Program-made: the position numbers and the translations under genes
The notes under the pieces: generated by a model
Database searches by the model: none
What the model was told of the DNA's origin: nothing
What the model saw: only the letters and a program-made list of their open reading frames with translations
Shown here: positions 22,731-38,128 of the stretch, one piece after another
Layout of the letters: the number at the start of each line of letters is the position of its first letter
Numbering within the stretch: the first letter of the stretch is position 1
Assembly (NCBI GenBank): GCA_949296475.1
Contig: CASFOK010000018.1
Span: forward strand, 1 to 62,632
Reading direction: 5' to 3'
Origin: an uncultured Pseudomonadota bacterium
GTDB lineage: Bacteria; Pseudomonadota; Alphaproteobacteria; Rs-D84
Length of the DNA: 62,632 nt

Positions 22731-22979
22731 ATGACCCATGAAGATGTATGGCGGGCAATAGAACGCTTTGCAACAGAACACGGAATGTCTTGTTCCGGTT
22801 TGGCGAAATGTAGTGGTTTGGACCCTACTACTTTCAATAAAAGTAAACGCTGGTCCAAAGAAGGACAGCCAAGATGGCCGTCAACAAACAGTATTTCAAA
22901 AATATTGTCTTCTACGGGCGCAAGTATACAAGATTTTACAAAATATATTGATCAGCCGCAAAACCAAGGCAGAGATTGA
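22731..22979 (+). CDS. alphaproteobacterial HTH repressor (HTH domain only)
   Basis: H..VW.AI..FA...GMS.SGLAK.SGLDPTTFNKSKR...RWPST.SI.KIL signature; GAGGAG RBS. Confidence 0.85.
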   Translation: MTHEDVWRAIERFATEHGMSCSGLAKCSGLDPTTFNKSKRWSKEGQPRWPSTNSISKILSSTGASIQDFTKYIDQPQNQGRD

Positions 22980-24204: not shown

Positions 24205-24228
24205 ATGAAGCATTAAGAGTGAAATTTT

Positions 24229-24284
24229 ATTCGTAACATCTGTTACGAATTTTTTTATCCCGCGCGTTTTTGCGCGGTTTTTTT
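24229..24284 (+). terminator. two tandem terminator-like hairpins in the cluster leader
   Basis: ATTCGTAACA-TC-TGTTACGAAT plus T-run, then CCGCGC-GTTTTT-GCGCGG plus T-run. Confidence 0.65.
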
Positions 24285-24312
24285 ATTTCTTAATATCAAG
24301 GGTGAAAATATC

Positions 24313-24723
24313 ATGCAATTGTCGTTGATAAAAAAAAGTGACGAAACAAAAGCTGTTGCTTATGCGATTGCTAGGTTGGTGTACGCAGAGACGCGCGCAA
24401 GTTCTTTGCCAGCTGTTGAAGCGTTAACTTCAATGATAAACAACATATCTGTGTCTGCCGGGAAAAATTTTACAGAGATAATTTCTGATTCGGACATGTT
24501 TGAATCGCTGAATAAAGATTCGGACCATCATAAATATTTATCAACCGATGTTTCTAATCGCGGTTTTCAGATGTGCGTACGCGTTGTCAATCGTATGTTG
24601 CATGGTGCTTTACCAGATTCTTGCTGTGGTGCGACAAAATTTCATCGGGTTAACAGATTGCCCGATTGGGCGGTGGCGCGCGGATATATCGCTGATATAG
24701 ACGGTTTATTGTTTTATTTATAA
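24313..24723 (+). CDS. cell wall hydrolase, SleB/Hydrolase_2-like (putative lysin)
   Basis: ARLVYAETRA..., GATKFH...PDWA....IDGLLFY. Confidence 0.7.
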   Translation: MQLSLIKKSDETKAVAYAIARLVYAETRASSLPAVEALTSMINNISVSAGKNFTEIISDSDMFESLNKDSDHHKYLSTDVSNRGFQMCVRVVNRMLHGALPDSCCGATKFHRVNRLPDWAVARGYIADIDGLLFYL

Positions 24724-24733
24724 GAAGGTATCA

Positions 24734-24958
24734 ATGATAAGAAAAATTATTCAGGGCGGTTTTTTATCTGGTCACAGAACTTACATAATTTCTGGCATCG
24801 GCATTTTATCTGCAATCGGTGCATACCTGGTCGGTGACACAGATATATTTACTATGTTACAAGCAATCTTTACATTAGGTGGCATATATTTTTTAAGAAA
24901 ATCTAGTGAAACAAAAGGACGAAAACATGGAAAAAATTCCAGAAAAATTTCTAAATGA
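24734..24958 (+). CDS. putative holin
   Basis: Two short TM segments, G.RTYI motif, basic tail, next to lysin. Confidence 0.55.
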   Translation: MIRKIIQGGFLSGHRTYIISGIGILSAIGAYLVGDTDIFTMLQAIFTLGGIYFLRKSSETKGRKHGKNSRKISK

Positions 24959-25583
24959 AGACGGTACTTTAAATACAGACGCGTTGTTGAAATCTTATTC
25001 AGAACTGGAAAAGAAAATGAGTACGATGATTTCAATACCAACAGAAAATGCAGACGAAGCAACGCGCACAAAATTCAATCGCGCTATTGGCGTACCAGAT
25101 AATGCGAACGCGTATCCTGTCAGCCCGATGTTTGATGATGAAAATTTACGCGCACAATTTTTTGAAATCGGGTTGACTTCGTCACAAGTTGAAAAAATTT
25201 ATAAGATAGCAGAAGAATTTTTATCGCCTGTATTATCAGATTTATTTAGCAAACAAAATGAAACGAATGCGATTACAGAATTGAAAAATTTTTTCGGCGA
25301 CGAAGAAAAAATGATAGACGCATTACGTGCAATAAAATCGTTCGGTGAAAAATATTTACCGTCTGATGCGTTTGATTCGTTATGTTCTTCAGCCCAAGGA
25401 ATCCAAAGCGTTTACAAGATGATGCAATCAATGGAACCAAGTGTACGAACAGAAAAAAATTCATCAGAAATTTTAACAGATGATGTATTAAGAAAGATGA
25501 TGCAAGATCCAAAATACTGGCGCGATCAAGATCCAGAATACGTTCGCAAAATTGAAAACGGTTTTAAAAAGTTATATTCATAG
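24927..25583 (+). CDS. capsid assembly/scaffolding protein
   Basis: IPEKF..DG..N.DAL.KSYSELEKKM and MMQDPKYWRD.DP motifs typical of podovirus scaffolds. Confidence 0.75.
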   Translation: MEKIPEKFLNEDGTLNTDALLKSYSELEKKMSTMISIPTENADEATRTKFNRAIGVPDNANAYPVSPMFDDENLRAQFFEIGLTSSQVEKIYKIAEEFLSPVLSDLFSKQNETNAITELKNFFGDEEKMIDALRAIKSFGEKYLPSDAFDSLCSSAQGIQSVYKMMQSMEPSVRTEKNSSEILTDDVLRKMMQDPKYWRDQDPEYVRKIENGFKKLYS

Positions 25584-25686
25584 AAAAAATTGCACTTTCT
25601 TCTTTACTAATTTTTTTATTTAATATAAAATATAAATCAAGAACAAAAGAATTTGTTCTATCCAAAAAATAATAAAGGAGAGAAGA

Positions 25687-26025: not shown

Positions 26026-26029
26026 TAAG

Positions 26030-26234
26030 TCCCCGCATTTGCGGGGATTTTCATTTATTAAATCCGCATTTGCGGATTTTTTTAAAAAATATTTAGTCAG
26101 ATTTTTCAAAACGTCTGACTGAATATTTTTCAAGACAATCCGTTCGTGGACCTTGGATATTTTTGTCGTATGGCGCAAAATCGCATAACCAGAAAACAAA
26201 ATATTAATCAGCGCAATTCATTTGCGTTTTTTTT
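26030..26234 (+). promoter_or_regulatory. hairpin-rich capsid leader with several terminator-like stems
   Basis: Two CCGCATTTGCGG-core hairpins (26030-47, 26060-79), 17-bp stem 26085-26130, GCGCAA/TTGCGT plus T-run before RBS. Confidence 0.55.
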
Positions 26235-26257
26235 AATCAATAAAAAGGAATGTATAT

Positions 26258-27088
26258 ATGTCTGTTTCCATAGATCAAGTCTTCGTAAAACAATTCGAAG
26301 CAGATGTTCATTTGGCTTATCAGCAAATGGGCACAAAATTGCGTGCGACGGTACGCAGCAAATCTGGTGTTGTTGGTGCGTCAACCACATTCCAAAAAGT
26401 TGGTCGTGGTACCGCCAGTACAAAATCGCGTCATGGTATTGTACCTGTTATGAACTTGAATCATGAACCTGTTGAATGCTTGTTGCAAGATTATTATGCA
26501 GGCGATTGGGTAGATGCCTTGGATGAGTTAAAAACAAACGTTGACGAGCGTCGTGTTGTTGCCTCTGCCGGTGCGTATGCATTAGGTCGCAAAACCGATG
26601 AATTAATCATATCCGCAATGAGCAACGCAACAGATTCTGTTGGCGATTATACCACAGGACTGACAAAAGATTTAATCTTGTCTGCCGTTGAAGAATTGAA
26701 TTCAAAGGATGTTCCTGATGATGGCAGAAGATTTGCGGTTGTCGGTGTTCATCAGTGGAACGAACTGTTATCAATGGATGAATTTGTGTCGGCAGATTAC
26801 GTCGGTAATGATTTACCTTTGGTATCTGGCGGGGCTTCTAAAAAATGGTTGGGCATTACATGGGTGTTGCATAATGGTTTGCCTGTATCAGACGACGAAC
26901 GCGATTGCTTTATTTATCACGCAACTAGCATAGGTCATGCTTGCGGGCAAGAAGTAAAAACGGATATTTCTTGGCACGGCGAACGTGCGGCGCACTTTAT
27001 CAGCAACAGTATGTCCCAAGGTGCTGTGTTGATTGATGACGATGGCATCGTACGCATTAAATGTCTGGATAAAGAAGAAACAATTTAA
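26258..27088 (+). CDS. major capsid protein (podovirus/BPP-1-like family)
   Basis: SIDQ.FVKQFEADVHLAYQ.MG.KLR, DYYAGDWVD.LDELK, ALGRKTDELII, VPDDGRRF. Confidence 0.85.
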   Translation: MSVSIDQVFVKQFEADVHLAYQQMGTKLRATVRSKSGVVGASTTFQKVGRGTASTKSRHGIVPVMNLNHEPVECLLQDYYAGDWVDALDELKTNVDERRVVASAGAYALGRKTDELIISAMSNATDSVGDYTTGLTKDLILSAVEELNSKDVPDDGRRFAVVGVHQWNELLSMDEFVSADYVGNDLPLVSGGASKKWLGITWVLHNGLPVSDDERDCFIYHATSIGHACGQEVKTDISWHGERAAHFISNSMSQGAVLIDDDGIVRIKCLDKEETI

Positions 27089-27109
27089 AGATAATCAAAG
27101 GATATTAAT

Positions 27110-27337
27110 ATGGCTTTTCAGAATAAAAACTTATCTGTAATTGCATATGCTAATGGTTTTACATTGTGGCATTATGCGGCAAAAGAAACTTTGGCAACGA
27201 TATCTGCATCTGGATATTTTAATAGTGTAAAGACGTTAATGAACGCAGGCGATGTATTGATTGTAAATGCATCTGATAATACATCTATTAAAAAAATTGC
27301 TGTATCGGAAAATGTGACAGTTGCCGATTTAGTTTAA
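27110..27337 (+). CDS. small capsid-associated (decoration-like) protein
   Basis: Directly after capsid; LSV.AYANGFTLWHY...GYFN motif. Confidence 0.55.
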   Translation: MAFQNKNLSVIAYANGFTLWHYAAKETLATISASGYFNSVKTLMNAGDVLIVNASDNTSIKKIAVSENVTVADLV

Positions 27338-27388
27338 TCATATAAAGGGCGGTTTTATTGCCGCCCATATTTTTAAAGGGGGTATAAG

Positions 27389-27907
27389 ATGCTGACAAAA
27401 ATAGATTTATGTTCTATGGCGTTGTTAAAATTGGGGGAAAAATCTATACAGTCCCTGGTAGACGATACGCCCGCCGCCCAACTAAGTCGTACGTTATTTG
27501 ATCCCGTGGTAGATGCGTTGTTGGCATCGCACCCGTGGCGGTTTGCGTGCAAAGAGTTTAATTTAACGAAAAATTCAGATGGTGATTTTTTGATACCTTC
27601 TGAATGTTTAAGAATCATTAAGTGCAGCGGCGAAATCATCGGTAATAAAATCATCACCGCGTCAGAAAATATAAATATTGTCGCCATTGTTCGCGTTCCC
27701 GTTGAAACGTTCCCGAGTTATTTTGTATCTTTGGCTGCCACAAAATTGGCAATGGAATTTTGTATACCACTAATTGGAGAGCAAACTGTTTTTAGAATGC
27801 TGGCGGCTTTATACGAAACGGAATTACAATCTGCAAAATTCATAGACAGTACAACCACTGTTAACCGTGACATTGATAGTTTTTCTCTGGTTAACGTGCG
27901 TTTTTAA
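27389..27907 (+). CDS. tail tubular protein A / adaptor (T7 gp11-like)
   Basis: IDLCSMAL.KLG...IQSL.D, LL..HPW.FA, FPSYF. Confidence 0.75.
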   Translation: MLTKIDLCSMALLKLGEKSIQSLVDDTPAAQLSRTLFDPVVDALLASHPWRFACKEFNLTKNSDGDFLIPSECLRIIKCSGEIIGNKIITASENINIVAIVRVPVETFPSYFVSLAATKLAMEFCIPLIGEQTVFRMLAALYETELQSAKFIDSTTTVNRDIDSFSLVNVRF

Positions 27908-27922
27908 TTGTGGGGGATTACA

Positions 27923-29638
27923 ATGGGGGATTTCATAAAAACACAAAATTCTTTTGCACATGGCGAAGTCGCACCAGAATTTTTTGCGCATGATAATATT
28001 AATGGTTTATCGCGACTGGAAAATATGGATGTCTTGGCAGGCGGCGGTTTGTCTCGGCGGCGCGGATTGCAGCATATTGCTGATTTGGAATCAAATGCAA
28101 GGCTTATCGCGTTTTCGGTCAGTGAAAATGAAAATTACATATTGGCTTTGAAAAACAAGATTATATCAGTGTTTTACCAAGGTGAGAAAATAAAAGATTT
28201 ATTTTCACCGTGGGCTTTTGATGATTTAACAAAGTTACAATATGCGCAACGTTTTGGTACCATAATTTTTGTACATCCGGATTACCAGCCTTATGTTTTA
28301 AAAAAAGAATCGGATGATTTTGCGTTATCAAAATTTGATTTTGCGCGTAATGACTCTGATATGACGGTTAATATGCCGTTTATGAAGTTTGACGATGCGG
28401 AAAACATAAAAATTACCGTGACAGCAAACGATGCAGGTAATAATTACGCTACGTTTACAACGAATGAAAATTTTTGGACGACAGATGATACAGAAGGGCG
28501 CTTTTTGTTATTGGATAAGCAGTGGACAATAACAGAATACATCAGTCCGACAGTCGTAAAGGCGCATACAAATGGAACGTACAGTTTGCCAAGCGGGGCT
28601 GTGTCGGATTGGCGCGAAGCGGCGTTCAGTAAAAAACGTGGTTGGCCGTGCAGCATTACTTTTCATCAAGATAGATTGGTCTTTGGCGGTTCGCGTTCTT
28701 GGCCCAGTGGTGTATGGCTTTCCCAGGTTGGTCGGCATAATAATTTTAATGTCGGTACCGGTTTAGACGACGAAGCAATATTTATAACGTTGCTGTCGCA
28801 ACAGCGACAGCAAATTTGCACAGTTGTCAGCAGCGATAATTTGCAAATTTTAACATCAGCGGGTGAATGGGCGATATCCAGTAAACCTTTGACGCCGTCG
28901 GCTGTGGATATAAAGCAACATACATCGGTTGGCAGTGTATCGCAAAGGTATTTGCCGCCGCAAAAAATAGAAGGCGCAACCGTGTTCATTTCTAGCAGCA
29001 AAAAAGACATTCGTGAACTGAGTCTTGACCAGTTGGGTGAAAATTATAATGCCACCGATTTGTGTGCGTTTTCAAAGCATTTGATGCAAGAACCCGTTGA
29101 CGTTGCTTATAACGAAGAAACGCGTCAGTTATTCGTTGTTATGCAATCTGGCGATATGGCTGTGTTAAACCAAAATTCTGCCTTGGGCATTTCTGCATGG
29201 GGCAGTTATAAAACCCAAGGCCAATTTAAATCCGTTGCTACCATAAACGGAGAGACTTTCGTCGTTGTTTATCGTGATGATGAGTTTTGTTTGGAAAAGT
29301 TTTCAGATTCTGTGTTACAAGACGGTGACAAATATGGATTTGCGTTTGTCGCGTCTGCGTTGCCCTTACGTGCATCAGGGCATAACGCAAACAAAGTCAG
29401 ACTACGAAAAATAATGGCGCGTGTTTTAAACACGAAGACTTTATTTATAAACGATATGCGGGCGGATTTGCCTAATGAAGTGTATTCTGCGGAATCAAAT
29501 GGTTATAGCGGCGACGTTTCTATAAATTTATTAGGCTTGCAAAGAAACTGCATGAATGCGCCTTGGACAATCAAAAGCAGTGAACAATTACCGGCAACGG
29601 TATTATCCGTGACGATGTACGGGTATTACTTGGTATAA
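27923..29638 (+). CDS. tail tubular protein B / nozzle (T7 gp12-like)
   Basis: QNSF..GEVAP, GGL.RR.G, W.E.AFS..RGWP..ITFHQDRL.FGG. Confidence 0.8.
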   Translation: MGDFIKTQNSFAHGEVAPEFFAHDNINGLSRLENMDVLAGGGLSRRRGLQHIADLESNARLIAFSVSENENYILALKNKIISVFYQGEKIKDLFSPWAFDDLTKLQYAQRFGTIIFVHPDYQPYVLKKESDDFALSKFDFARNDSDMTVNMPFMKFDDAENIKITVTANDAGNNYATFTTNENFWTTDDTEGRFLLLDKQWTITEYISPTVVKAHTNGTYSLPSGAVSDWREAAFSKKRGWPCSITFHQDRLVFGGSRSWPSGVWLSQVGRHNNFNVGTGLDDEAIFITLLSQQRQQICTVVSSDNLQILTSAGEWAISSKPLTPSAVDIKQHTSVGSVSQRYLPPQKIEGATVFISSSKKDIRELSLDQLGENYNATDLCAFSKHLMQEPVDVAYNEETRQLFVVMQSGDMAVLNQNSALGISAWGSYKTQGQFKSVATINGETFVVVYRDDEFCLEKFSDSVLQDGDKYGFAFVASALPLRASGHNANKVRLRKIMARVLNTKTLFINDMRADLPNEVYSAESNGYSGDVSINLLGLQRNCMNAPWTIKSSEQLPATVLSVTMYGYYLV

Positions 29639-29654
29639 AAAATGGAGGTTAATT

Positions 29655-30002
29655 ATGGGACAACTTGTATCAGATGTAACAGATATATTGGATTATAAGA
29701 AATCAAAAAAAGATGCAGAAACAGAACGTCAAAAAGTTCTGGCTGACATTGCTGCAGATGAAAAGACAAAAACTAACTTGGTAAAGAAAACCTTGGCCAC
29801 GCAACGTGCAAAATATGGGGCGTCTGGTATGTCCGGTCGCAGCATGACGGAAGGCGCCGTCTTAAAACGCTTGAAATCCGAAACCGAAGAACCATACGAA
29901 GAAAAAAAGCGTACAAATATAGAAAAATTGAAAAAAATAAAAGTAGAAAAACCGAATTTATTACAATCTTTGTTGGATAAATTTGAGGACTTAATTGGTT
30001 AA
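29655..30002 (+). CDS. putative internal virion/ejection protein
   Basis: Position after nozzle; QRAKYGASG motif; helical. Confidence 0.5.
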   Translation: MGQLVSDVTDILDYKKSKKDAETERQKVLADIAADEKTKTNLVKKTLATQRAKYGASGMSGRSMTEGAVLKRLKSETEEPYEEKKRTNIEKLKKIKVEKPNLLQSLLDKFEDLIG

Positions 30003-30016
30003 CGCAGGGGGCGCAC

Positions 30017-30565
30017 ATGTACAAGGTATCTTATGTCGCAGACGGTGAAACGTCCGAGTTTTTGTTTGTATTCCCTTTTTTTCAATCTGCGGACATTCGT
30101 GTATCTGTGGACGAGAAGATTCTTTCGGACACAGAATACGCGGTGATTCCAAATGAAGAATACGACGGTGGTAACGTTGTTTTCCCTGTGCCACCAGAAA
30201 AAGATGTTAAAATAGACATTTTCAGACAGGTGGCGCTGTCGCGTGTCATAGACTATCAACCGACGGCAAAAATAGACCCGGAAAATCTAAACGCAGATTT
30301 TAATTTTCTGTTAGAAGCGTTTAAAGATTTACATAAAATAGAGGTTGATGTAACAGAATGGGAAAATATACATGACAACGTTATGCGTTTTTTGAATTAT
30401 ACCTTGCAGGTAATAGAAGACAAGTTGTCTGGCGGAACAGTTCTGGGTTTATATAGTAATCTGTTATCTGTATTAGAAAACGCGCTGCCAAAACTTATAA
30501 ACGATTATGGCAGCATAACCGAAGAAGCACCAAACGAAAATCGCGATGATTACGGCGTTTTATGA
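30017..30565 (+). CDS. tail fibre N-terminal anchor protein (T7 gp17 N-domain-like)
   Basis: Y.ADG.T..F.F.FPFF..ADI.V.VD, GG.V.F..PP, LNADF. Confidence 0.7.
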   Translation: MYKVSYVADGETSEFLFVFPFFQSADIRVSVDEKILSDTEYAVIPNEEYDGGNVVFPVPPEKDVKIDIFRQVALSRVIDYQPTAKIDPENLNADFNFLLEAFKDLHKIEVDVTEWENIHDNVMRFLNYTLQVIEDKLSGGTVLGLYSNLLSVLENALPKLINDYGSITEEAPNENRDDYGVL

Positions 30566-31160
30566 TTTTTTAGACCAATGGAATGAAATATTGGGCCTGA
30601 ATACGCCGGCACATCATAAGCAAATTATGGATTTTTTGGTCTCTGTACTGGAATCCGAACCGCATCGTGGTTTATTAATGTCTTTCAGGCATTCTGGCAA
30701 ATCAACAGTAGTTGGTATTTTTGCCGCGTGTGTTTTGTGCTTGCGGCCAGAAACAAGAATTTTGATTTTGTCGGCGGAAAATAGTTTGGCGGCGCGCATG
30801 GTTGCACATATTAAACACATTTTGGAAAATCATCCCAGATGCTTGGATTTGATACCAGATGTAAAAAAAGAGTGGGCAAACGGCAGGATAACAGTTAACA
30901 GACCAATTGGCATTCGGGAACCGTCGGTTGTTTGCCAGGGAATACACGGTAACATTACAGGTATGCGCGCAGATTTAATCATTTGCGATGACGTAGAGGT
31001 CCCGAATACTTGTAACACTGCTAGCAAACGCGAAACGTTACGTGAAAGATTGCGAGAGCTAGATTTTATATTATCGCCAACCGGTACCATGATATACATC
31101 GGTACGCCACATACTATGGATACAATTTATAGAACAACACAAGACGACATGACAAACTAA
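30546..31160 (+). CDS. terminase large subunit, ATPase half
   Basis: Walker A FRHSGKST, GNITGMRAD, Walker B IICDDVE, motif III IGTPH. Confidence 0.85.
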   Translation: MITAFYDFLDQWNEILGLNTPAHHKQIMDFLVSVLESEPHRGLLMSFRHSGKSTVVGIFAACVLCLRPETRILILSAENSLAARMVAHIKHILENHPRCLDLIPDVKKEWANGRITVNRPIGIREPSVVCQGIHGNITGMRADLIICDDVEVPNTCNTASKRETLRERLRELDFILSPTGTMIYIGTPHTMDTIYRTTQDDMTN

Positions 31161-31826
31161 TTATTGTTGCGCTTCTTCTTGTTCAGATGGTTTGATTGCG
31201 GTAATTAACGAACGTAATTTCTTTAACAGTTCTGCACCAGCATCGCCAAAAAGTGGCAGGTAAGTTTCATATTCAGGCATGTCCGCTTGTAATTGTGCGC
31301 GTGTACGTTCAGACAAGGGTTGCCTTAATATATCGCTTGCAACGTTCCATAGGTGATATGCTTGGTAAGTTTTATCAACGATTAACCATTTTTCTAGTAA
31401 TTGCGGTTTGGCAGATAAAACAGAACGTATCGCGACCAACCATTGATTCCCGAATTTTTTTACAATTGATAGTTGTTGTAATTTGTGTAAGCCGTCTTCG
31501 TCAGGGGTGAATTCGTTTATACCTTTTTCCAGTTCGGTCCATTCGGCGTTCGTTAATGGTATCGTAGCAACAGATTGCGCCATCATACCGCCATAAGGTA
31601 ACAGGTCGCGTTCAATGGAATCCATCGGGGTTTTGCCGCTGCGCAGATTTTCAATGTGCTTTACCAAGTTTTTCCCGGTTGGTAATTCACGCAATTCTTT
31701 TAATATTTCAGGGGTAGATTCATTAATAAAAACTTGATTAACAGCCGCCCAACCACCAAAGATTACGTGTTCTTGGCGATAAAGATTTAATAATTTTTGC
31801 GCTGTTACGCTGGCTTTTATTTTCAT
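31161..31826 (-). CDS. hypothetical protein
   Basis: 221-aa ORF, GGGGGA RBS, downstream of the XRE regulator. Confidence 0.75.
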   Translation of the reverse strand: MKIKASVTAQKLLNLYRQEHVIFGGWAAVNQVFINESTPEILKELRELPTGKNLVKHIENLRSGKTPMDSIERDLLPYGGMMAQSVATIPLTNAEWTELEKGINEFTPDEDGLHKLQQLSIVKKFGNQWLVAIRSVLSAKPQLLEKWLIVDKTYQAYHLWNVASDILRQPLSERTRAQLQADMPEYETYLPLFGDAGAELLKKLRSLITAIKPSEQEEAQQ

Positions 31827-31853
31827 TTTGTCCCCCCTGTGTGCAAAAGAATA

Positions 31854-32858
31854 TTATTCCATTACAATCATGATGACTTTGTGCATGGTTTTTCCGATGA
31901 TTTTTTCTTCTGGTGATACGATTTGACCGTATGTTTTGCCCTTGGAATCTTGGCGAACAACAACGACTTGTGCCGTGGCCGTATCATCGGCTTTCATCGT
32001 TTCAAAGTCTGTATCAATGCATACCGCCAAGTCGCCGACAGATACTGTTGCCTGCGAATCCACAAAAACATAAGATTTTTCAGGTATAAAACCGCCCAGA
32101 CGTTTAGAGTTTGGAATAACAGCGTACATGCCGGAACGGCCTTCTAGCGGAACCGGTGCGACAATCATGGTTTCGTCAGATTTTTTAAACGTCAGCGCCT
32201 TCCCGGCAGGCGTTGCAAATACAGGGATAAGTTTTTTACGTGCGCTGTCGTACAATTTTGCACCATAAAAACTGCTGTGATCAATGCCAGACATGGGGTT
32301 GCTGGGGATTAGGACGGATTTTACGCGTTCGGTAACCTTGTTTATTTGTTTGTTTAATTCGCCTGATTTATATAAATCTGCGATTTTATCAAACAAGGCT
32401 TCCGCGGTATAACCAAAGGAATTTGCCAAAGGTTCTATTTCGTTTTGATAAATTTCGCGTTGCCCAACTTCTATCTTGTGGTATACGGACAAGGTCATAC
32501 CTGCGTCTTTTGCAGCCTGAGCGATAGTTTTACCTGCTTGTTGGCGGACCTTGCGTAATCCGCTGCCAAATATTTTTAATCCGCTGTCCTCGTTGTCATT
32601 CAAGCGTCGCTTTATTTCCGTTTGCCATTGGTTTGCGACGTCATCTGATTCTTTGATGAAAATGTCTGATAACTTGCAACCTAATATATTACATATGTTC
32701 AATAATTGTTTTTGGTTCAAGCGACGAACGCCTTTTTCTATCTTGGACACGGCGGATAAAGACAAATTTGCCTGACGGGCCAGCGCGGTCATTTTCATGC
32801 CGCTTGCCAAACGGATGTTTCGTATGTTGTTTGGAAAGATTATTTCTTCTTGGGCCAT
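31854..32858 (-). CDS. tandem XRE-HTH regulator with degenerate S24-like C-terminal domain
   Basis: Two HTHs (LSLSAVSKIEKG, MTLSVYHKIEVG); AAGGAG RBS before ATG 32858. Confidence 0.85.
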   Translation of the reverse strand: MAQEEIIFPNNIRNIRLASGMKMTALARQANLSLSAVSKIEKGVRRLNQKQLLNICNILGCKLSDIFIKESDDVANQWQTEIKRRLNDNEDSGLKIFGSGLRKVRQQAGKTIAQAAKDAGMTLSVYHKIEVGQREIYQNEIEPLANSFGYTAEALFDKIADLYKSGELNKQINKVTERVKSVLIPSNPMSGIDHSSFYGAKLYDSARKKLIPVFATPAGKALTFKKSDETMIVAPVPLEGRSGMYAVIPNSKRLGGFIPEKSYVFVDSQATVSVGDLAVCIDTDFETMKADDTATAQVVVVRQDSKGKTYGQIVSPEEKIIGKTMHKVIMIVME

Positions 32859-32924
32859 TCTGAATCTCCTTGCACTTATTGACAAATATTAGTTAATTTT
32901 CACAGAATAGGCAAGTATAAAATG

Positions 32925-34475
32925 TTATAAAGGCATATCGTCTGGAATATCGTCGGGATTAATGGCCACGGTGTCAGAATCTTGGGCGGGTAAAGTCTGC
33001 GTAGGGTTATCAATAAAATCTGGAACGCCCCTTTCCGCCATTTCATCCAGGTTATCAAATAAACTGTAATCGCCAAAGAACGCCAGTCGCACAGTTTCAG
33101 GGCGACCATGTCTGTTTTTACCAATAATGACGTCCGCCTTACCGCGTGCACGTTCCAGACGTTTTTGATAACTTTCAATAATTTTGTCGGTTGCGTTACC
33201 AGATATTCTTTGCGATGGGTCGCGATTTTCAAGATAATATTCTTCGCGGTATGTAAACATTACAATGTCAGCGTCTTGCTCAATAGAACCAGATTCGCGC
33301 AAGTCCGCCAGTTGCGGTCGTTTATCGTCGCGTGATTCAACGCTGCGCGATAATTGCGACAGCGCAATCACCGGTACGTCCAGTTCTTTGGCCAACATTT
33401 TCAGGCCGCGCGTAATTTCAGAAATTTCTTGAACGCGGTTATCGTTGCGCTTTCCGCCGGGTGATGTCATCAGTTGTAAATAGTCAACAACAATCAGGGC
33501 GATACCGCCACACTTACGTGCCAATCTTCTTGCGCGCGTTCGCATCATCGGGACGGACATGCCGGGGGTGTCGTCTATGTACAAAGGAACCCGTCCAATC
33601 GCGTCGGAATATTGCGACATTTTAAGAAAGTCTTCATCTGTCAAAGATCCTTCGCGCATGGCGGTTGCAGGAATCTTAGACTGCGATGATAATACGCGGG
33701 CCGCCAATTGCGAGTGTGACATTTCAAGACTGAAAAACACCACCGCCCCTTTATACTGTTCGTTTGCGCGTCCGTAAAGAATAGCATTCGCAGCGTTAAA
33801 AGCGATATTCATTGCCAAAGTCGTTTTTCCCATCGCGGGTCGTCCTGCAATGATTATCAAATCAGAATGGTGCAAGCCGCTGATTGATTTATCCAACGCC
33901 GTTAAACCCGTTGTTAAACCGGATAATTTTCCATCGGCTTTATATGCAATTTCCGCTTCCTTCAAGGCGCTTTGCAATGCAGTTGCGATAGATGCTACTT
34001 CGCGTTCGGATATGCCCGCGGACGCCATTTCAAACAGTTTTTGTTCCGCGGTTTCTATTTGCGCGGATACAGGGTTGTCTAAATCTTCAACAAACGCCGA
34101 ATCTGTGATAGATTGACCCAAGTTTATCAAGTCGCGACGTAACGCGTTTTCATAAACAATGCGTCCGTATTGTTCAACGTTGACGACGGTTGCACCGGCC
34201 CCCGCCAATTGTGTAAGGTATTCAACGCCGCCGACGGATTCCAAAGTACCTTGTTGTTCAAGGTAATTTTTAGCGGTGATTATATCAAACGGTATTCCCG
34301 CAGCAAACTGCTTTTCAGCCAATTTGTATATTTCTTGGTGTGCGGGGTGGTAAAAATGTTCAGGACGTAAGAATTCTGATACGCGTTCCAACGCGCGATT
34401 GTTCATCAGAACAGCCGCCAAAACAGCCTGTTCAGCCTCTAAGTTAGTCGGCAAAGTTTTGGGAGTAAAGTCCAT
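32925..34475 (-). CDS. dnaB: replicative DNA helicase (host type)
   Basis: P.NLEAEQAVL, GRPAMGKT, FSLEM, VDYLQL, LSQLSR, LRESGSIEQDAD, KNRHG. Confidence 0.97.
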   Translation of the reverse strand: MDFTPKTLPTNLEAEQAVLAAVLMNNRALERVSEFLRPEHFYHPAHQEIYKLAEKQFAAGIPFDIITAKNYLEQQGTLESVGGVEYLTQLAGAGATVVNVEQYGRIVYENALRRDLINLGQSITDSAFVEDLDNPVSAQIETAEQKLFEMASAGISEREVASIATALQSALKEAEIAYKADGKLSGLTTGLTALDKSISGLHHSDLIIIAGRPAMGKTTLAMNIAFNAANAILYGRANEQYKGAVVFFSLEMSHSQLAARVLSSQSKIPATAMREGSLTDEDFLKMSQYSDAIGRVPLYIDDTPGMSVPMMRTRARRLARKCGGIALIVVDYLQLMTSPGGKRNDNRVQEISEITRGLKMLAKELDVPVIALSQLSRSVESRDDKRPQLADLRESGSIEQDADIVMFTYREEYYLENRDPSQRISGNATDKIIESYQKRLERARGKADVIIGKNRHGRPETVRLAFFGDYSLFDNLDEMAERGVPDFIDNPTQTLPAQDSDTVAINPDDIPDDMPL

Positions 34476-35322
34476 GTCTGATATAGTATATAAAAATTTT
34501 CTTTTTTCAACGCCTTTTTTATCTGGATACCGTAAATTAAAAATACCAATAGTTGACGCCGACGGTAAACCGGCTTGGCCGGAATTGTTCCCAATAGAAC
34601 GAATAGAAGAGGTCAGAAAAACCGTTGGGGACAGATATTTTTCTGCGCAGATGATGTTGACTTTTGTTGCGCCCGACAGGGCGCGCCTGGACCCAGATTC
34701 GTTACATTTATACGATGCAGATTTTGACGGTCGCAGTGCTAAAATAGGCGATTTTTTAATAACCGGGGTGACTGCTTATTGGGACCCTTCGTCCGGCAGG
34801 AAAAAGTCGGACGGCAGCGTATGCGTTTTAATGTACCGGGACGATAAGAATAAACTGTTTTTCGTTCATGATGTGCAGTATTTATTAGTACCCGACGAAG
34901 AAACACATCCTTTGGCGCGTCAGTGTCAAATGGTGTTGGATTTTTTGTCTAAACATTCGCTGCACAGAATTTATATTGAAACAAACGGTTTAGGAAACGC
35001 CTTGCCCGAGATTATGCGTACGGTCGTCAAACAGCGCGGTGTAAGCATACAAATAAACAAAGTTTTCAATCACGAAAAAAAAGAAACAAGAATCCTAGAA
35101 AACATAGAACCCGTGTTAACGACTGGGCGTTTGTATGTTCATCGTCGTGTTCAATCCACGCCTTTATTATCAGAAATGTTGGGTTGGTCGCCTATTGGCA
35201 ACATCGGTCATGATGATGGTCTGGATGCGGTTGCCGGGGCTATTTCTGCGTTGCCGGCACCCATCAGGCCGTTCGGGCAGATAATGCAACCTTTCAAAGC
35301 GAATACTGATTTCAAGTTATAA
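34474..35322 (+). CDS. terminase large subunit, nuclease half
   Basis: AWPELF, F.AQMML, WDPS, IETNG.G, HDDGLDA; GGGAG 8 nt before ATG 34474 (ORF track starts at 34399). Confidence 0.8.
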   Translation: MSDIVYKNFLFSTPFLSGYRKLKIPIVDADGKPAWPELFPIERIEEVRKTVGDRYFSAQMMLTFVAPDRARLDPDSLHLYDADFDGRSAKIGDFLITGVTAYWDPSSGRKKSDGSVCVLMYRDDKNKLFFVHDVQYLLVPDEETHPLARQCQMVLDFLSKHSLHRIYIETNGLGNALPEIMRTVVKQRGVSIQINKVFNHEKKETRILENIEPVLTTGRLYVHRRVQSTPLLSEMLGWSPIGNIGHDDGLDAVAGAISALPAPIRPFGQIMQPFKANTDFKL

Positions 35323-35341
35323 CAACGCAAAAGGAGAAAAA

Positions 35342-36565
35342 ATGCAAAATAATCTACAACAAATGTATCGTCGCGCCTTAGATTTGCGCGCGCCTTGGTT
35401 AAATAGGTGGGATAGTGCGTTGCGCTATACGATGCCAACCGCAGATGATGAGGTGGCCACGTTATTTGATGCAACTGCTGCTGATGCAGTAGATAACTTG
35501 GCTGCATCAATATATTCTTTGCTTACGCCACCGGAATCTTTATGGTTATCGCTGGTGCCGGAAAGTGAAGATTCGCCAGACGCTATTACTGCAACAATGG
35601 CATTACGTGCGAACTTAAACGATTCTAATTTTTACACGACTATTCATCAGTGTTATTTAGACCTTGTGATTTTAGGTACTGCATGTTTATTTATGTCGGA
35701 AAATCCGATTGGTGCGGATTCTGCGTTTTCTTTTACTGCCATACCCATGAAAGACATAGCGATATTGCAAAACGCAGTATTTCATACGACCAGTATGTCT
35801 GCACGCGAAGTCATGGAAAAATATCCGTCTTGGACGCCGCCTGCCGATATTCGTGACGCCATCAAGAAAGACCCAGAAACGCCGATACGATTGGTACAGA
35901 GTCTGGTCGGTAAAGATTTTACCGCATGGTTAGACGTTGGCGGTAATATAGAAAACAACATTGTATCAACGGGGACGTTTGAAACGAATCCGTATTTAAT
36001 CTTTCGTTGGTCTGTCGCCAGCGGCGAGTTATATGGGCGCGGTCCTGTATTGCGAGCGTTGCCGGATATCAAGACCGCCAATAAAGTCGTAGAATTGGTA
36101 TTAAAAAACGCAACCATTGCAGTATCTGGTATTTGGCAAGCAGACGACGACGGTGTAATAAACCTTTCAAATATAAATTTAACGCCAGGAGCAATTATAC
36201 CAAAAGCGGTTGGCAGTTCAGGTCTGACGCCGTTATCGTCTGGTGCAGACTTTGACGTTTCGCAGATAATATTAAAAGATTTACGCGAACGTATTCGCCA
36301 TGCGCTACTTGCGGATAGACTGGGGCTGTTGTCGGAAAAAGAGATGACCGCGACCGAGATAATGGCGCGTAACGCGGACATGATGAGAATATTGGGCGCA
36401 ACGTATGGTCGTTTGCTGCATGAGTTTATTAGACCGTTATGTGAAAGAGGTCTGCAGATATTATCTCGTCGTGGGGTGATAGATAAGATATCTTTGCATA
36501 GCGATGCAGAATTGAAGTACATAGCGCCGATAGCACAGATGGCAATAGAAGAAACATTATTATGA
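35342..36565 (+). CDS. portal / head-tail connector (T7 gp8-like), compact
   Basis: FD.TA.DAV.NLA, DLV.LGTA, RW..SGE.YGRGP..ALPDIKT, MTATEI..R, LGATYGRL. Confidence 0.88.
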   Translation: MQNNLQQMYRRALDLRAPWLNRWDSALRYTMPTADDEVATLFDATAADAVDNLAASIYSLLTPPESLWLSLVPESEDSPDAITATMALRANLNDSNFYTTIHQCYLDLVILGTACLFMSENPIGADSAFSFTAIPMKDIAILQNAVFHTTSMSAREVMEKYPSWTPPADIRDAIKKDPETPIRLVQSLVGKDFTAWLDVGGNIENNIVSTGTFETNPYLIFRWSVASGELYGRGPVLRALPDIKTANKVVELVLKNATIAVSGIWQADDDGVINLSNINLTPGAIIPKAVGSSGLTPLSSGADFDVSQIILKDLRERIRHALLADRLGLLSEKEMTATEIMARNADMMRILGATYGRLLHEFIRPLCERGLQILSRRGVIDKISLHSDAELKYIAPIAQMAIEETLL

Positions 36566-36771
36566 CAAAGGTGGCTATTATGAAAGACATAGAGCAAAAT
36601 TATGCGCGTACATTTTCAACGTCAGCGGGGCAGGCCGTGTTGTCACATTTACGCAAAATAACCATAGAAAGAGTACTTGGACCGAACGCCAGTGATTCAG
36701 AACTTCGCGGTCTAGAGGCACAGCGGGCCTTGGTACATCAGATAGAAAACATGATAGAGCGGGGCAAGTAA
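36562..36771 (+). CDS. small portal-linked protein (Bbp19-like)
   Basis: Y.RTF.T.AG.AVL.HLR....LE.QR.LV..I pattern after portal. Confidence 0.6.
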   Translation: MTKVAIMKDIEQNYARTFSTSAGQAVLSHLRKITIERVLGPNASDSELRGLEAQRALVHQIENMIERGK

Positions 36772-37031
36772 TGTCAATGCAGTACGGCGGCGCGACGGGA
36801 ATATTGGACTTTCTGCGAGACAGTTGGTTTCTTATCGCGTTTATTGCAGGCATGATATATTGGGTCGCACGTCAAGATTCTTCACTGGCGGAACTAGAAC
36901 GCGCAGACCACCGGATAACCACGTTGGAAAACAGAACGACTATACTAGAAACGGGTATAGGACAGTTACAAATAAAATTAGACGGCATAAAAGAAGACGT
37001 CGGTTTAATCAAGACGGCGGTTATAAAATGA
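36771..37031 (+). CDS. membrane-anchored coiled-coil protein (holin/spanin-like)
   Basis: One TM helix plus heptad repeat; TAATG coupling. Confidence 0.55.
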   Translation: MSMQYGGATGILDFLRDSWFLIAFIAGMIYWVARQDSSLAELERADHRITTLENRTTILETGIGQLQIKLDGIKEDVGLIKTAVIK

Positions 37032-37035
37032 AAAA

Positions 37036-37062
37036 AATCCCGCGATTGCTTCGCGGGATTAA
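37036..37062. terminator. terminator ending the portal operon
   Basis: AATCCCGCGA-TTGCT-TCGCGGGATT. Confidence 0.75.
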
Positions 37063-37066
37063 ATCC

Positions 37067-37216
37067 TTAACAACCGCCGGTTGCGTTACCGATGATTTTA
37101 GAAATAGAAATATCTTTGTGGAATAAGAAATCGTATTCGCAATTTCCTTGTTTATAAGAACCAGTGCAGGCCGCCAACGTTAATACGGCAAACAACGCCA
37201 ACATAATTTTTTTCAT
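37067..37216 (-). CDS. small lipoprotein, YhfL/DUF4223-like (missed by ORF track)
   Basis: MKKIMLALFAVLTLAACTGSYKQGNCEYDFLFHKDISISKIIGNATGGC; AAGGAG RBS. Confidence 0.75.
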   Translation of the reverse strand: MKKIMLALFAVLTLAACTGSYKQGNCEYDFLFHKDISISKIIGNATGGC

Positions 37217-37282
37217 ATACTTTCTCCTTTTTCTTATAAGTAGACTTTTAAATTATAAGATTAATTGGTGATGTTTGCAAGA

Positions 37283-37627
37283 TTATATTGCGCCTTGAAT
37301 CCACTTCATTTTATATGGGGTAAAGACGATGACGTCAAACCTGGCATTACCGGTCCAATGTATCTGAGCCAAATATGTTTCTGCGGCATTGTGTAGACGT
37401 TTAATTTGTGCGCGGGTTATGGCGTCCAAGGCGTTTTCAGTATTATTTCTTTTTTTCACTTCAACGAACAGTATTAAATTGTGTCGTTTTGCGATGATGT
37501 CAATTTCTGCTCTATTGGAAAAGCGCCCGGTTACGTATCTTTTTTTCAAGATGTGGAAACCGTGTAATCGCAAATATATTCGCGCGCATAATTCAGTGAA
37601 TAAACCGACACGATAAGAATTCATCAT
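37283..37627 (-). CDS. yraN: YraN (UPF0102) family protein
   Basis: EIDIIA, LFVEVKKR, RFDV. Confidence 0.88.
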   Translation of the reverse strand: MMNSYRVGLFTELCARIYLRLHGFHILKKRYVTGRFSNRAEIDIIAKRHNLILFVEVKKRNNTENALDAITRAQIKRLHNAAETYLAQIHWTGNARFDVIVFTPYKMKWIQGAI

Positions 37628-37672
37628 GTAAAGAATTATAAAACAAAACCGAAAATAACAAAAGGATAAAAA

Positions 37673-38128
37673 ATGTCAAAGCAAATACAGATAAGACGAG
37701 GCAGTGCGACGGAACACGAAGACTTCACGGGTGCGCTTGGCGAGGTTACGATGGATACGACGAATAAAACGTTGCGCGTACATGACGGGGAAACGGCGGG
37801 CGGCATAGCCATTGCCAAACAGAATGAGTTGGATAATATAAAAAATTATTTATTAAAAATAGATTTAGATTGGGATAATAAAATTGATTGTGCTAGTACA
37901 GTCAATATAACTATTAATAAAAGTGGTTTTATGTTGTGTCGTGGTTCTACATATTCTTTAGATTGGGTGGAAGCAGATTTTAAAACAGAAATATTACGAG
38001 AGTATATATTATCTAATAACTACACAACAGTTTGGGCACCGGTTTATGAGGGACAACATCTTAAACAACGTCAAAAATCTGAATATAGCACCTCTTTTTT
38101 TATACCGTACAAAAGTATTTCAGAATAA
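37673..38128 (+). CDS. fibre protein with BPP-1 Mtd-like N-terminal domain
   Basis: QIRRGSATEHEDFTGALGEVTMDTTNKTLRVHDGETAGG. Confidence 0.75.
   Translation: MSKQIQIRRGSATEHEDFTGALGEVTMDTTNKTLRVHDGETAGGIAIAKQNELDNIKNYLLKIDLDWDNKIDCASTVNITINKSGFMLCRGSTYSLDWVEADFKTEILREYILSNNYTTVWAPVYEGQHLKQRQKSEYSTSFFIPYKSISE

What the first reader, a model, noticed from the sequence alone, without database searches (positions are those of the whole stretch)
30546..35322. Large terminase split in two, with a dnaB cassette in the gap
Seen: the ATPase half ends just after motif III (IGTPHTMDTIY..). The nuclease half resumes 3.3 kb later (PFLSGYRKLKIP..AWPELF) with its acidic motifs (WDPS, IETNG, HDDGLDA). Both halves are open, and between them lie dnaB, a tandem-XRE regulator and an unknown gene on the opposite strand. 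Established: TerL is normally one polypeptide. Inference: a functional two-chain terminase. Uncoupling cutting from translocation could favour non-specific packaging, and an embedded essential gene blocks loss of the cluster.
Basis: partly seen in the sequence, partly recalled or inferred. Interest (0 to 1): 0.88.

Follow-up and report, generated by a model that had tools for sequence, protein, structure and literature searches.

The report
Two-gene phage terminase, conserved order-wide
A small-genome gut bacterium keeps a phage-derived particle gene set whose DNA-packaging motor is encoded as two separate genes, a split shared by its whole bacterial order and kept by selection, so it looks like a working two-piece motor and not a broken gene.

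Summary
ORF 30546-31160 (+) is the Walker A/Walker B/motif III part of a T7-type large terminase (TerL). ORF 34474-35322 (+) is the rest of the ATPase domain plus the RNase H-like nuclease. Between them, on the minus strand, lie an unknown gene, a tandem-HTH regulator and the genome's only dnaB.

The organism is a Candidatus Enterousia relative (order Rs-D84, Alphaproteobacteria; genomes under about 1 Mb).

- **Age of the split:** it is not strain-specific. It sits at the same loop in all 17 N-half and 20 C-half frames examined, from five families. The N half stands alone in 302 of 328 genomes of the order.
- **Selection:** both halves are under strong purifying selection (dN/dS 0.05 and 0.08; dnaB 0.03).
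- **Assembly:** a complex model rejoins the halves by beta-strand complementation (ipSAE 0.90, best control 0.00).
- **The dnaB cassette is secondary.** In three families the halves are adjacent; in another, ftsZ and portal lie between them.
- **Relatives with intact TerL:** the same 12-14 kb head-tail-terminase cluster occurs in 55 of 397 other alphaproteobacterial genomes sampled. In the three loci read ORF by ORF it is flanked by housekeeping genes.

Best reading: a domesticated, GTA-like podovirus particle with a two-chain terminase. The "essential-gene lock" idea is not supported.

The parts
22731..22979 (+). 82-aa HTH-only homologue of the LexA/CI-like repressor that flanks the intact clusters in other Alphaproteobacteria; the peptidase part is missing here
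   Evidence: tblastn 47% identity over 75 aa, E 2e-17, to L132:17453-18082; Pfam HTH_26 5e-4, below cut-off
24313..24723 (+). Cell-wall-hydrolase-like protein; its homologue follows TerL in the intact clusters
   Evidence: phrog_938 endolysin 4e-8; Pfam Hydrolase_2 0.012, below cut-off; homologues next to TerL in class loci
24906..25583 (+). T7-type scaffold (capsid assembly) protein
   Evidence: Pfam Phage_T7_Capsid 3e-9
26258..27088 (+). Major capsid protein
   Evidence: Pfam Phage_capsid_2 2e-71, phrog_3437 3e-72; dN/dS 0.028
27110..27337 (+). Conserved 75-aa protein that follows the capsid gene in all clusters; function unknown
   Evidence: synteny; also present in pelagiphage Hodr
27389..27907 (+). 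Tail tubular protein A-like
   Evidence: phrog_394 tail protein 1e-32
27908..29638 (+). Tail tubular protein B-like
   Evidence: phrog_376 tail protein 7e-79
29655..30002 (+). 115-aa charged protein; only a faint likeness to T7 gp14
   Evidence: Pfam T7_gp14 E 0.016, below cut-off; conserved synteny
30017..30565 (+). Short tail-fibre protein (T7 fibre N-terminal domain only)
   Evidence: phrog_1640 3e-13; Pfam Phage_T7_tail 0.005, below cut-off
30546..31160 (+). TerL-N: ATPase core with Walker A (G51 K52 S53), Walker B (D148 D149 E151) and motif III (G186 T187 P188 H189)
   Evidence: matches residues 19-211 of the T7-like TerL 8dgc_E (E 1.8e-35); dN/dS 0.052
31161..31826 (-). Unknown 221-aa gene, conserved in the genus and always beside XRE and dnaB
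   Evidence: no Pfam or PHROG hit; no usable Atlas hit; synteny in 80 of 80 loci; dN/dS 0.085
31854..32885 (-). Regulator with two HTH_3 domains and a C-terminal domain of unknown family
   Evidence: Pfam HTH_3 1e-19, two stretches; dN/dS 0.049; not significantly similar to the cluster repressor
32925..34475 (-). dnaB, the only replicative helicase gene of the genome; its ATG overlaps the ATG of TerL-C (CATG)
   Evidence: 51-55% identical to the dnaB of other families, which lies elsewhere in those genomes
34474..35322 (+). TerL-C: last strand and lid part of the ATPase domain plus the RNase H-like nuclease (D104 in WDPS, E169 in IETNG, D247 D248 D251 in HDDGLDA)
   Evidence: dN/dS 0.081
35342..36565 (+). 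Portal (T7 head-to-tail connector type)
   Evidence: Pfam Head-tail_con 4e-81; dN/dS 0.047
36562..36771 (+). Bbp19-like small phage protein that follows portal in all clusters
   Evidence: Pfam Phage_Bbp19 4e-11; synteny
36771..37031 (+). 86-aa protein conserved within the genus; function unknown
   Evidence: synteny
37673..38128 (+). 151-aa protein with an Mtd_N tail-fibre tip domain; whether it belongs to the cluster is not shown
   Evidence: Pfam Mtd_N 2e-15, phrog_9648 2e-11

Best explanation
The window holds a phage-derived head, tail and DNA-packaging gene cluster that has become a fixed chromosomal feature of the order Rs-D84. These are Candidatus Enterousia and relatives: gut Alphaproteobacteria with genomes under about 1 Mb.

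Its large terminase underwent a gene fission in the common ancestor of at least five families of the order. The cut lies in a short variable loop directly after ATPase motif III. Gene 1 (TerL-N, about 200 aa) carries Walker A, Walker B and motif III. Gene 2 (TerL-C, about 280 aa) has its own ATG. It carries the next beta strand and the lid part of the ATPase domain, plus the whole nuclease domain.

Shown: the split is ancient, both genes stay open with invariant catalytic residues, and both are under strong purifying selection.

Inferred: the two proteins re-form one TerL protomer. In the model the PFLxGY..LKIP strand of TerL-C inserts into the ATPase sheet of TerL-N. This two-chain enzyme then packages DNA into podovirus-like particles made from the neighbouring scaffold, capsid, portal, tube A, tube B and fibre genes.

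The cluster has no integrase, replication genes or recognisable small terminase. It is inherited with the host and is occasionally lost whole. The most likely product is therefore a gene-transfer-agent-like particle, not a virus.

The dnaB-XRE-unknown cassette is host DNA that came to lie in the old inter-half spacer later, in family f1 only. It leaves the cluster as two co-oriented blocks separated by 3.3 kb of antisense genes.
For: - **Identity of the halves:** (8dgc_E residues 19-211 for the N half; about 258-293 and 405-526 for the C half).
- **Same cut site:** all 17 TerL-N and 20 TerL-C frames from 20 loci of families f1-f5 share it. In intact relatives the TIY...PFL linker is a 5-17 aa variable loop, so nothing is missing.
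- **Order-wide presence:** TerL-N is found in 302 of 328 genomes (213 of 224 at least 90% complete; 29 of 30 genera). All 150 listed frames are 199-233 aa. TerL-C is found in 53 of 61 genomes, with frames of about 265-410 aa in 50 of the 54 listed matches; the other four are partial matches in frames of 114-175 aa (G011, G023 second copy, G028) or a frame not reported here.
- **Protein clusters:** 877 clusters of 112-357 aa match the N half; the best 120 are all 194-216 aa.
- **Invariant residues:** Walker A, Walker B, motif III and the nuclease acidic residues are invariant across 13 sequences that are 30-50% identical.
- **dN/dS** (16 pairs taken from 61 loci): TerL-N 0.052, TerL-C 0.081, capsid 0.028, portal 0.047, dnaB 0.034.
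- **Complex model:** ipSAE 0.90 in 3 of 3 runs, best of 3 controls 0.00. That mark was reached by 58 of 80 solved complexes and 2 of 110 mismatched pairs. The runs agree in at least 89% of contacts and the partner's pLDDT is at least 78. The interface is TerL-C residues 12-26 against TerL-N residues 41-48 and 184-199.
- **Single origin:** in the quick TerL-C tree, all 15 split-form rows lie on one side of a branch with SH-aLRT 96.
- **Not a prophage:** no tyrosine recombinase lies on the window contig. Flanks are housekeeping genes. IMG/VR holds only 4-16 kb pieces of the cluster.
- **No other capsid system:** no HK97-type capsid in the genome, with a control that rings in Caulobacter.
Against: - No expression or particle data exist. 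No RNA run holding this DNA was listed, and that blank is not evidence either way.
- The complex model may pass only because intact TerL structures are solved. It shows likeness, not binding.
- One near-complete genome of family f6 (G041, 99%) has TerL-N directly followed by portal. No TerL-C was found there with the profile. The N half may therefore persist without the C half, or the assembly has a gap.
- The cluster lacks the T7 internal core proteins gp14-16 and any recognisable small terminase. How DNA would be chosen and delivered is open.
- The TerL-N tree is poorly resolved: the intact forms lie on one side with support of only 59/82.
- Whole-cluster loss in at least four genomes that are 96-98% complete shows the cluster is dispensable.
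Confidence: 0.68

Rival explanations
1. The two halves have drifted apart in function. TerL-N works as an ATPase and TerL-C as a nuclease (or portal-bound factor) without forming one enzyme. The cluster still makes particles, but packaging and cutting are done by separate, loosely coupled proteins.
For: The halves are separate genes, up to 3-5 kb apart and in different operons, in f1 and f3. G041 (f6) keeps TerL-N without a detectable TerL-C.
Against: The cut lies inside the ATPase fold, not at the domain boundary. TerL-C residues 12-26 are predicted to complete the sheet of TerL-N. That segment (PFLxGY..LKIP) is conserved in 12 of the 13 aligned sequences; the f4 row (L038) lacks the PFLxGY part. 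An ATPase core lacking its next strand and lid is unlikely to be stable alone (inference).
Confidence: 0.12
2. The embedded essential gene (dnaB in f1, ftsZ in f3) is selected because it protects the cluster from deletion, or ties particle production to replication or division.
For: Two different essential genes lie between the halves in two families. The dnaB and TerL-C start codons overlap (CATG) in the window and in at least 38 of 73 loci. TerL-N ends flush against the cassette with no terminator-like site between them. Read-through would therefore be antisense to dnaB (inference).
Against: G166 kept the cassette and lost the cluster. Families f2, f4 and f5 keep the cluster without any embedded gene. 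In genus g26 dnaB lies upstream on the same strand, and in g29 it is not within 1.5 kb. ftsZ in f3 is co-oriented, so the antisense idea is not general. In genomes under 1 Mb a large share of genes is essential, so chance placement is plausible (inference).
Confidence: 0.1
3. The split is repaired before use by a self-splicing intron, an intein, trans-splicing or programmed excision of the intervening DNA, as in phage terL genes interrupted by group I introns.
For: Split terL genes in print are of this kind: Jug phages (passages of PMC12880540) and Twort with three coding sequences (passage of PMC13729910).
Against: The intervening genes are on the other strand and include the only dnaB. Every TerL-N has its own stop and every TerL-C its own ATG. 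No Rfam intron family matched the window region or the spacers of adjacent forms, even at E up to 1. No excision joint appears in contigs of four runs. No recombinase gene lies on the contig. No intein-sized insert is present.
Confidence: 0.03
4. The cluster is a decaying prophage remnant and the split is a disabling lesion.
For: There are no replication, integration or core-ejection genes. The cluster is absent from some species.
Against: dN/dS is 0.03-0.12 for all ten genes tested. Frames are open in hundreds of species. Catalytic residues are invariant. Synteny is kept in 80 of 80 genus loci.
Confidence: 0.03

Closest known systems
T7-type large terminase (gp19 family; solved chains 8dgc_E and 4bij_A)
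   Same: Same ATPase motifs and RNase H-like nuclease. Profile matches: E 1.8e-35 for the N half; 8e-4 for the C half, plus a weak lid match at residues 258-293. Nearest cultured phages are Autographiviridae, at about 36% (N half) and 27% (C half) identity.
   Different: It is encoded by two genes instead of one, cut after motif III. It sits in a chromosome, not a phage. No adjacent small terminase gene was found.
   Same: Gene set: portal, Bbp19-like, scaffold, capsid, 75-aa gene, tube A, tube B, fibre, TerL, hydrolase. Capsid is 55-65% identical and TerL-N 44-54% identical. Strong matches (E 4e-65 or better) occur in 55 of 397 sampled genomes outside the order, mostly one per genome. In the 3 loci read ORF by ORF, the flanks are housekeeping genes and no integrase was seen.
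   Different: There TerL is one frame of about 480-650 aa. Portal stands at the start of the cluster, not after TerL. A full LexA/CI-like repressor and a roughly 100-aa gene just before TerL are present.
Intron- or intein-split terL genes of phages (Jug phages, Twort)
   Same: terL appears as two or three ORFs (passages of PMC12880540 and PMC13729910).
   Different: Those are rejoined by splicing into one protein. Here there is no intron signal, the intervening genes are antisense, and each piece has its own start and stop.
Gene transfer agents (RcGTA, BaGTA; the podovirus-like FpGTA of Faecalibacterium)
   Same: A chromosomal head-tail-terminase cluster without replication or integration genes, conserved with the host lineage and under purifying selection. 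[quoted passage not shown]
   Different: No particle or packaging data exist here. The gene set is T7/pelagiphage-like, not HK97-like; there is no PF05065 capsid in the genome. BaGTA has an unsplit 447-aa terminase (table passage of PMC3610622).
Pelagibacter podophage EXVC031P Hodr (OQ414635.1)
   Same: Nearest cultured phage for the head and tail genes: capsid 45%, portal 33%, with Bbp19-like, scaffold, tube A and tube B homologues in the same order.
   Different: It is a 34-kb phage. Its terminase gave no match to either half at E 1e-3.

Membership tests
Large terminase TerL, T7 type | ATPase with Walker A, Walker B and motif III | tested here: met
   Invariant G51 K52 S53, D148 D149 E151 and G186 T187 P188 H189 in 13 sequences; PHROG 38 6e-43; 8dgc_E 1.8e-35. 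The motif names are from my own knowledge of TerL.
Large terminase TerL, T7 type | C-terminal RNase H-like nuclease with conserved acidic residues | tested here: met
   Pfam Terminase-T7_RNaseH-like 6e-10 and Terminase_6C 2e-6; invariant D104, E169, D247, D248, D251
Large terminase TerL, T7 type | ATPase and nuclease on one polypeptide | tested here: not met
   Two ORFs, each with its own stop and start, in all loci of families f1-f5. It works like a TerL but is a two-gene form.
Large terminase TerL, T7 type | ATP-driven DNA packaging and DNA cutting activity | not testable with these tools
   Needs biochemistry
Gene transfer agent | Chromosomal phage-like structural cluster without replication or integration genes | tested here: met
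   ORF and family scans of window 19968-38128; no tyrosine recombinase on the contig. Serine recombinases and transposases were not searched.
Gene transfer agent | Conserved across a host lineage under purifying selection | tested here: met
   302 of 328 genomes of the order; dN/dS 0.03-0.12
Gene transfer agent | Particles carry random host DNA and cannot carry their own full gene set | not testable with these tools
   No particle DNA data. No RNA holder was listed, and that blank counts for nothing.
Intron/intein-split terL | Self-splicing RNA or intein between co-oriented fragments | tested here: not met
   No Rfam intron family; the intervening genes are antisense
Replicative helicase DnaB | DnaB N-terminal and C-terminal domains; housekeeping copy | tested here: met
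   Pfam 1e-32 and 5e-100; the only DnaB_C match in the genome; 51-55% identical to the dnaB of other families

The most novel reading that the evidence does not exclude
Rs-D84 bacteria, and possibly many other Alphaproteobacteria that carry the intact form, make a podovirus-type gene transfer agent unrelated to RcGTA. In Rs-D84 its packaging motor is a natural two-chain TerL, held together by strand complementation inside the ATPase fold. This would be the first terminase known to work as a heteromer of an ATPase core and a lid-plus-nuclease chain. In Enterousia the particle genes are interleaved with the only dnaB, so transcription running from TerL-N to TerL-C would be antisense to the replication helicase. 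That could tie particle production to replication arrest.
Probability: 0.3. Interest if true: 0.9.

Novelty: new variant of a known kind. Interest (0 to 1): 0.8.

Why it matters
TerL motors are studied as single chains in which ATPase and nuclease talk through one backbone. A natural fission inside the ATPase fold, kept across a whole bacterial order, would show where the motor tolerates a break. It would also give a ready-made system for separating the roles of the ATPase core, the lid and the nuclease.

The cluster takes about 1% of a genome that has shed most biosynthesis, yet it is kept under selection as strong as that on dnaB. That argues the particle is useful to these gut bacteria. If it is a GTA, it is a second, podovirus-type lineage in Alphaproteobacteria and a route of gene exchange for uncultured, partner-dependent gut organisms.

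It is also a practical warning. Gene callers and virus finders label these roughly 200-aa and 280-aa ORFs as 'phage terminase' and file the cluster as a provirus.

Tried and rejected
- **BaGTA:** my first guess, rejected. The genome is 882 kb, and BaGTA has a one-piece 447-aa terminase in a different gene order (passages of PMC3610622).
- **Introns:** Rfam scans of seven relatives' loci, of window 24000-38500 and of two inter-half spacers gave only tRNAs and sub-threshold sRNA-like hits.
- **Expression:** The look-up of sequencing runs listed 18 DNA holders in 7 studies and no RNA holder. This says nothing on expression.
- **Unknown 221-aa gene:** no Pfam or PHROG hit and no usable Atlas hit.
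- **XRE regulator:** not significantly similar to the LexA/CI-like repressor of the intact clusters (blastp E 0.05).
- **Promoters:** the scan found 11 sites against 11.6 expected. The TTGAAA-16-TACTAT site 8 nt before the dnaB ATG is only a lead.
- **A second split lineage:** an apparent one (G511, 230-aa frame) is an artefact of masked bases.
- **Weak hit to a pre-TerL gene:** a match at window 8997-9302 (E 3e-4) falls on an HExxH-containing ORF, and I set it aside.
- **Trees:** the capsid tree was not built.
- **Literature:** searches found no paper on phage genes in Rs-D84 or Enterousia. None described a T7-like or podovirus GTA in Alphaproteobacteria. None described a terminase encoded by two genes without splicing. 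The library lacks most subscription journals, and supplements were closed, so these blanks are weak.

Full report
**What is in the window**

ORF listing and family scans confirm every element of the finding.
- ORF 30546-31160 (+, 204 aa) matches PHROG 38 'terminase large subunit' at profile positions 272-463 of 760 (E 6e-43) and Pfam Terminase_6N.
- The ORF ending at 35322 (+) matches positions 481-713 of the same profile (E 1e-37), plus Pfam Terminase-T7_RNaseH-like and Terminase_6C.
- The two pieces therefore cover adjoining parts of one protein family.
- On the minus strand between them lie an unknown 221-aa gene (31161-31826), a regulator with two HTH_3 domains (31854-32885) and dnaB (32925-34475).
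- dnaB is the only DnaB_C match in the 882-kb, 97.7%-complete genome.
- TerL-N ends flush against the stop of the unknown gene.
- The ATG of TerL-C (34474) overlaps the ATG of dnaB on the other strand, as CATG.

**The surrounding cluster**

Around the halves lies a T7/podovirus-type set:
- a hydrolase-like gene (24313)
- scaffold (24906)
- capsid (26258)
- a 75-aa gene
- tube A (27389)
- tube B (27908)
- a 115-aa gene
- a short fibre (30017)
- after TerL-C: portal (35342), a Bbp19-like gene (36562) and an 86-aa gene

No small terminase, no gp14-16-like core proteins and no replication genes were recognised. The genome's three tyrosine recombinases all lie on other contigs.

**Are the junctions real?**

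Contigs of other runs bridge both junctions:
- X2 covers 30000-32375 and 32346-36000.
- X3, from another study, covers 32623-34969.
- X4 covers 30927-31843 and 33931-34611.
- X5, from a third study, holds the whole 6 kb in one 27-kb contig with 388 differences.

No joint that would remove the cassette was seen. One of the related loci comes from a record whose title describes a circular long-read assembly (L053). I did not inspect that locus by itself, but every one of the 80 loci showed TerL-N followed by the unknown gene on the other strand.

**Who carries it**

Record titles of the nearest loci name Candidatus Enterousia and 'uncultured Alphaproteobacteria' from animal guts. A paper on these organisms places Enterousia in order Rs-D84. 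It describes genomes under about 1 Mb that lack most biosynthesis. In the passages I searched it does not mention phage, capsid, terminase or gene transfer (PMC12306168).

**How old is the split**

- TerL-C is present in 53 of 61 relatives, in frames of about 265-410 aa apart from a few partial matches in shorter frames.
- A TerL-N profile finds it in 302 of 328 genomes of the order. That is 213 of 224 genomes at least 90% complete, and 29 of 30 genera. All 150 listed frames are 199-233 aa.
- In 20 loci from five families, every TerL-N frame seen (17) stops 2-19 residues after GTPHxxDTIY. Every TerL-C frame (20) has its own ATG shortly before PFLxGY..LKIP.
- In relatives with an intact TerL, the TIY...PFL linker is a variable loop of 5-17 residues. 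The fission therefore removed nothing.
- In a quick TerL-C tree, all 15 split-form rows lie on one side of a branch with SH-aLRT 96. The TerL-N tree is poorly resolved but does not contradict this.
- Best reading: one fission, in the ancestor of at least families f1-f5.

**What lies between the halves differs by family**

| Group | Arrangement |
|---|---|
| f2, f4, f5 | Halves adjacent on one strand, with a 175-335 nt spacer that holds no Rfam family |
| f3 | TerL-N, then a tRNA or another gene, ftsZ (two of the loci), portal, then TerL-C |
| f1, Enterousia | TerL-N, then unknown-XRE-dnaB on the other strand, then TerL-C and portal |
| f1, genus g13 | Same divergent overlap as Enterousia |
| f1, genus g17 | dnaB divergent, with a 279-nt gap |
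| f1, genus g26 | dnaB upstream of TerL-C on the same strand |
| f1, genus g29 | No dnaB within 1.5 kb |

For Enterousia:
- 8 of 9 loci show the full arrangement; one is cut by a contig end.
- All 80 loci show TerL-N followed by the unknown gene.
- 73 of those 80 reach TerL-C. The other 7 stop before it; I did not check each for a contig end.

In f3, f5 and f6 dnaB lies elsewhere, is 51-55% identical, and has no XRE or unknown gene beside it. The dnaB cassette is therefore a later, lineage-specific arrival in a spacer that already existed.

**Selection**

I made codon alignments for ten genes from 61 loci with every gene at least 90% covered. I then took the 16 pairs with dnaB dS below 1.

| Gene | Median dN/dS |
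|---|---|
| TerL-N | 0.052 |
| TerL-C | 0.081 |
| capsid | 0.028 |
| portal | 0.047 |
| tube B | 0.121 |
| dnaB | 0.034 |
| XRE | 0.049 |
| unknown gene | 0.085 |

Across families that are only 30-50% identical, these residues are invariant:
- Walker A: G51 K52 S53
- Walker B: D148 D149 E151
- motif III: G186 T187 P188 H189
- nuclease: D104, E169, D247, D248, D251

**Where the cut lies, and how the pieces may work**

- Against the T7-like TerL chain 8dgc_E, the N half aligns to residues 19-211.
- The C half aligns weakly to 258-293 (the segment GxPxWPExF...G..F.SQ) and to 405-526 in the nuclease.
- The break is therefore inside the ATPase domain. The C half carries the next strand, the lid part and the nuclease.
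- A complex model with the two alignments gave ipSAE 0.90 in three of three runs, against 0.00 for the best of three controls. That mark was reached by 58 of 80 solved complexes and 2 of 110 mismatched pairs. The runs agree in at least 89% of contacts and the partner's pLDDT is at least 78.
- The contacts are TerL-C residues 12-26, 34-38 and 58-66 against TerL-N residues 19-52 and 166-199.
- I read this as the C-half strand completing the ATPase sheet next to the Walker A strand and the motif III strand.
- Intact TerL structures are solved, so this pass may only reflect that likeness. It supports binding but does not show it.

**The wider family**

- A sample of the class found strong matches (E 4e-65 or better) in 55 of 397 genomes outside the order. 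Nine more genomes had weaker matches.
- Nearly all these frames are 430-940 aa, which means an intact TerL. Most genomes have one match, and the matches cluster by family.
- One short frame is an artefact of masked bases. Two others (399 and 436 aa) lie in loci that stop short. I take these for contig ends but did not check.
- All thirteen loci fetched show the two TerL parts contiguous.
- Those loci also hold the same neighbours: portal, Bbp19-like, scaffold, capsid (55-65% identical to the window's in the 11 loci that hold it), the 75-aa gene, tube A, tube B, fibre, TerL and hydrolase.
- The hosts have 31-71% GC and genomes of 1.1-6.6 Mb.
- In the three loci I read ORF by ORF, the cluster spans 12-14 kb between housekeeping genes. 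It has a divergent LexA/CI-like repressor and no integrase or replication genes.
- The window keeps an HTH-only homologue of that repressor at 22731-22979.
- Cultured phages are distant. TerL is 36% (N half) and 27% (C half) identical to Autographiviridae. The capsid is 45% identical to a pelagiphage whose terminase is unrelated.
- IMG/VR holds 350 matching stretches. The best 80 are pieces of 4-16 kb, not 40-kb phages.

**Loss**

- G030 lacks TerL-N, TerL-C and dnaB, so it has an assembly gap there.
- G166 (97% complete) keeps dnaB-XRE-unknown but has no TerL-N or capsid.
- G033, G294 and G323 (96-98% complete) and G266 (85%) also lack both.
- The cluster is therefore dispensable, and an embedded dnaB did not prevent its loss.
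- G041 (f6, 99% complete) has TerL-N directly followed by portal, and no TerL-C was found with the profile. This is unexplained.

**Reading**

The cluster is a domesticated podovirus-derived particle system, GTA-like by its genomic traits, with a two-gene terminase. Print knows split terL genes only as intron or intein interruptions that are spliced back. [quoted passage not shown] My searches found nothing on this cluster. The library is incomplete and supplements were closed.

I rate the split as real, ancient and functional at about 0.9. I rate assembly into one two-chain enzyme at about 0.7, and a DNA-carrying GTA-like particle at about 0.5.

Noticed in passing
L033:4724-6406 and L041:4736-6262 (family f3): ftsZ sits inside the phage-derived cluster, between TerL-N and portal/TerL-C. 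It is co-oriented with them, and in L033 a tRNA lies just before it (4141-4213).
   Followed up: partly
L132-L145 (13 loci from other Alphaproteobacteria): A 12-14 kb head-tail-terminase cluster with intact TerL and a LexA/CI-like repressor, flanked by housekeeping genes in the three loci read ORF by ORF. It occurs in 55 of 397 sampled genomes of the class, mostly as a single copy and clustered by family. It may be an undescribed domesticated element.
   Followed up: partly
L143:13982-15797 (G041, family f6): TerL-N is followed at once by portal, and no TerL-C was found anywhere in this 99%-complete genome. Tube B lies apart, after the hydrolase-like gene.
   Followed up: partly
window 25584-26257: A 675-nt gap between scaffold and capsid, where relatives have 70-150 nt. 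It holds only minus-strand ORFs without family hits and sub-threshold sRNA-like Rfam matches at 25942-26101.
   Followed up: partly
window 38120-42137: A run of minus-strand genes at 26-32% GC, against about 40% for the rest of the window, next to the Mtd_N fibre-like gene. The first gene looks like a glycosyltransferase by its sequence; this was not scanned.
   Followed up: no
L035:7372-7842, L037:8887-9813, L038:7462-7950: Genes with type IV pilin-like N-termini (..GRSM(I/L)E.LGVLAI..) lie directly beside TerL-C in families f5, f2 and f4.
   Followed up: no
window 34483-34510 (minus strand): A promoter-like site, TTGAAA-16-TACTAT, ends 8 nt before the dnaB ATG and lies inside the first codons of TerL-C. 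This suggests a leaderless or near-leaderless dnaB mRNA. Promoter-like sites are not enriched in the region overall.
   Followed up: partly
L138:2513-6785: In one intact cluster (G414), about 4.7 kb of unrelated genes is inserted between scaffold and capsid. The cluster therefore tolerates insertions at other gene boundaries too.
   Followed up: no
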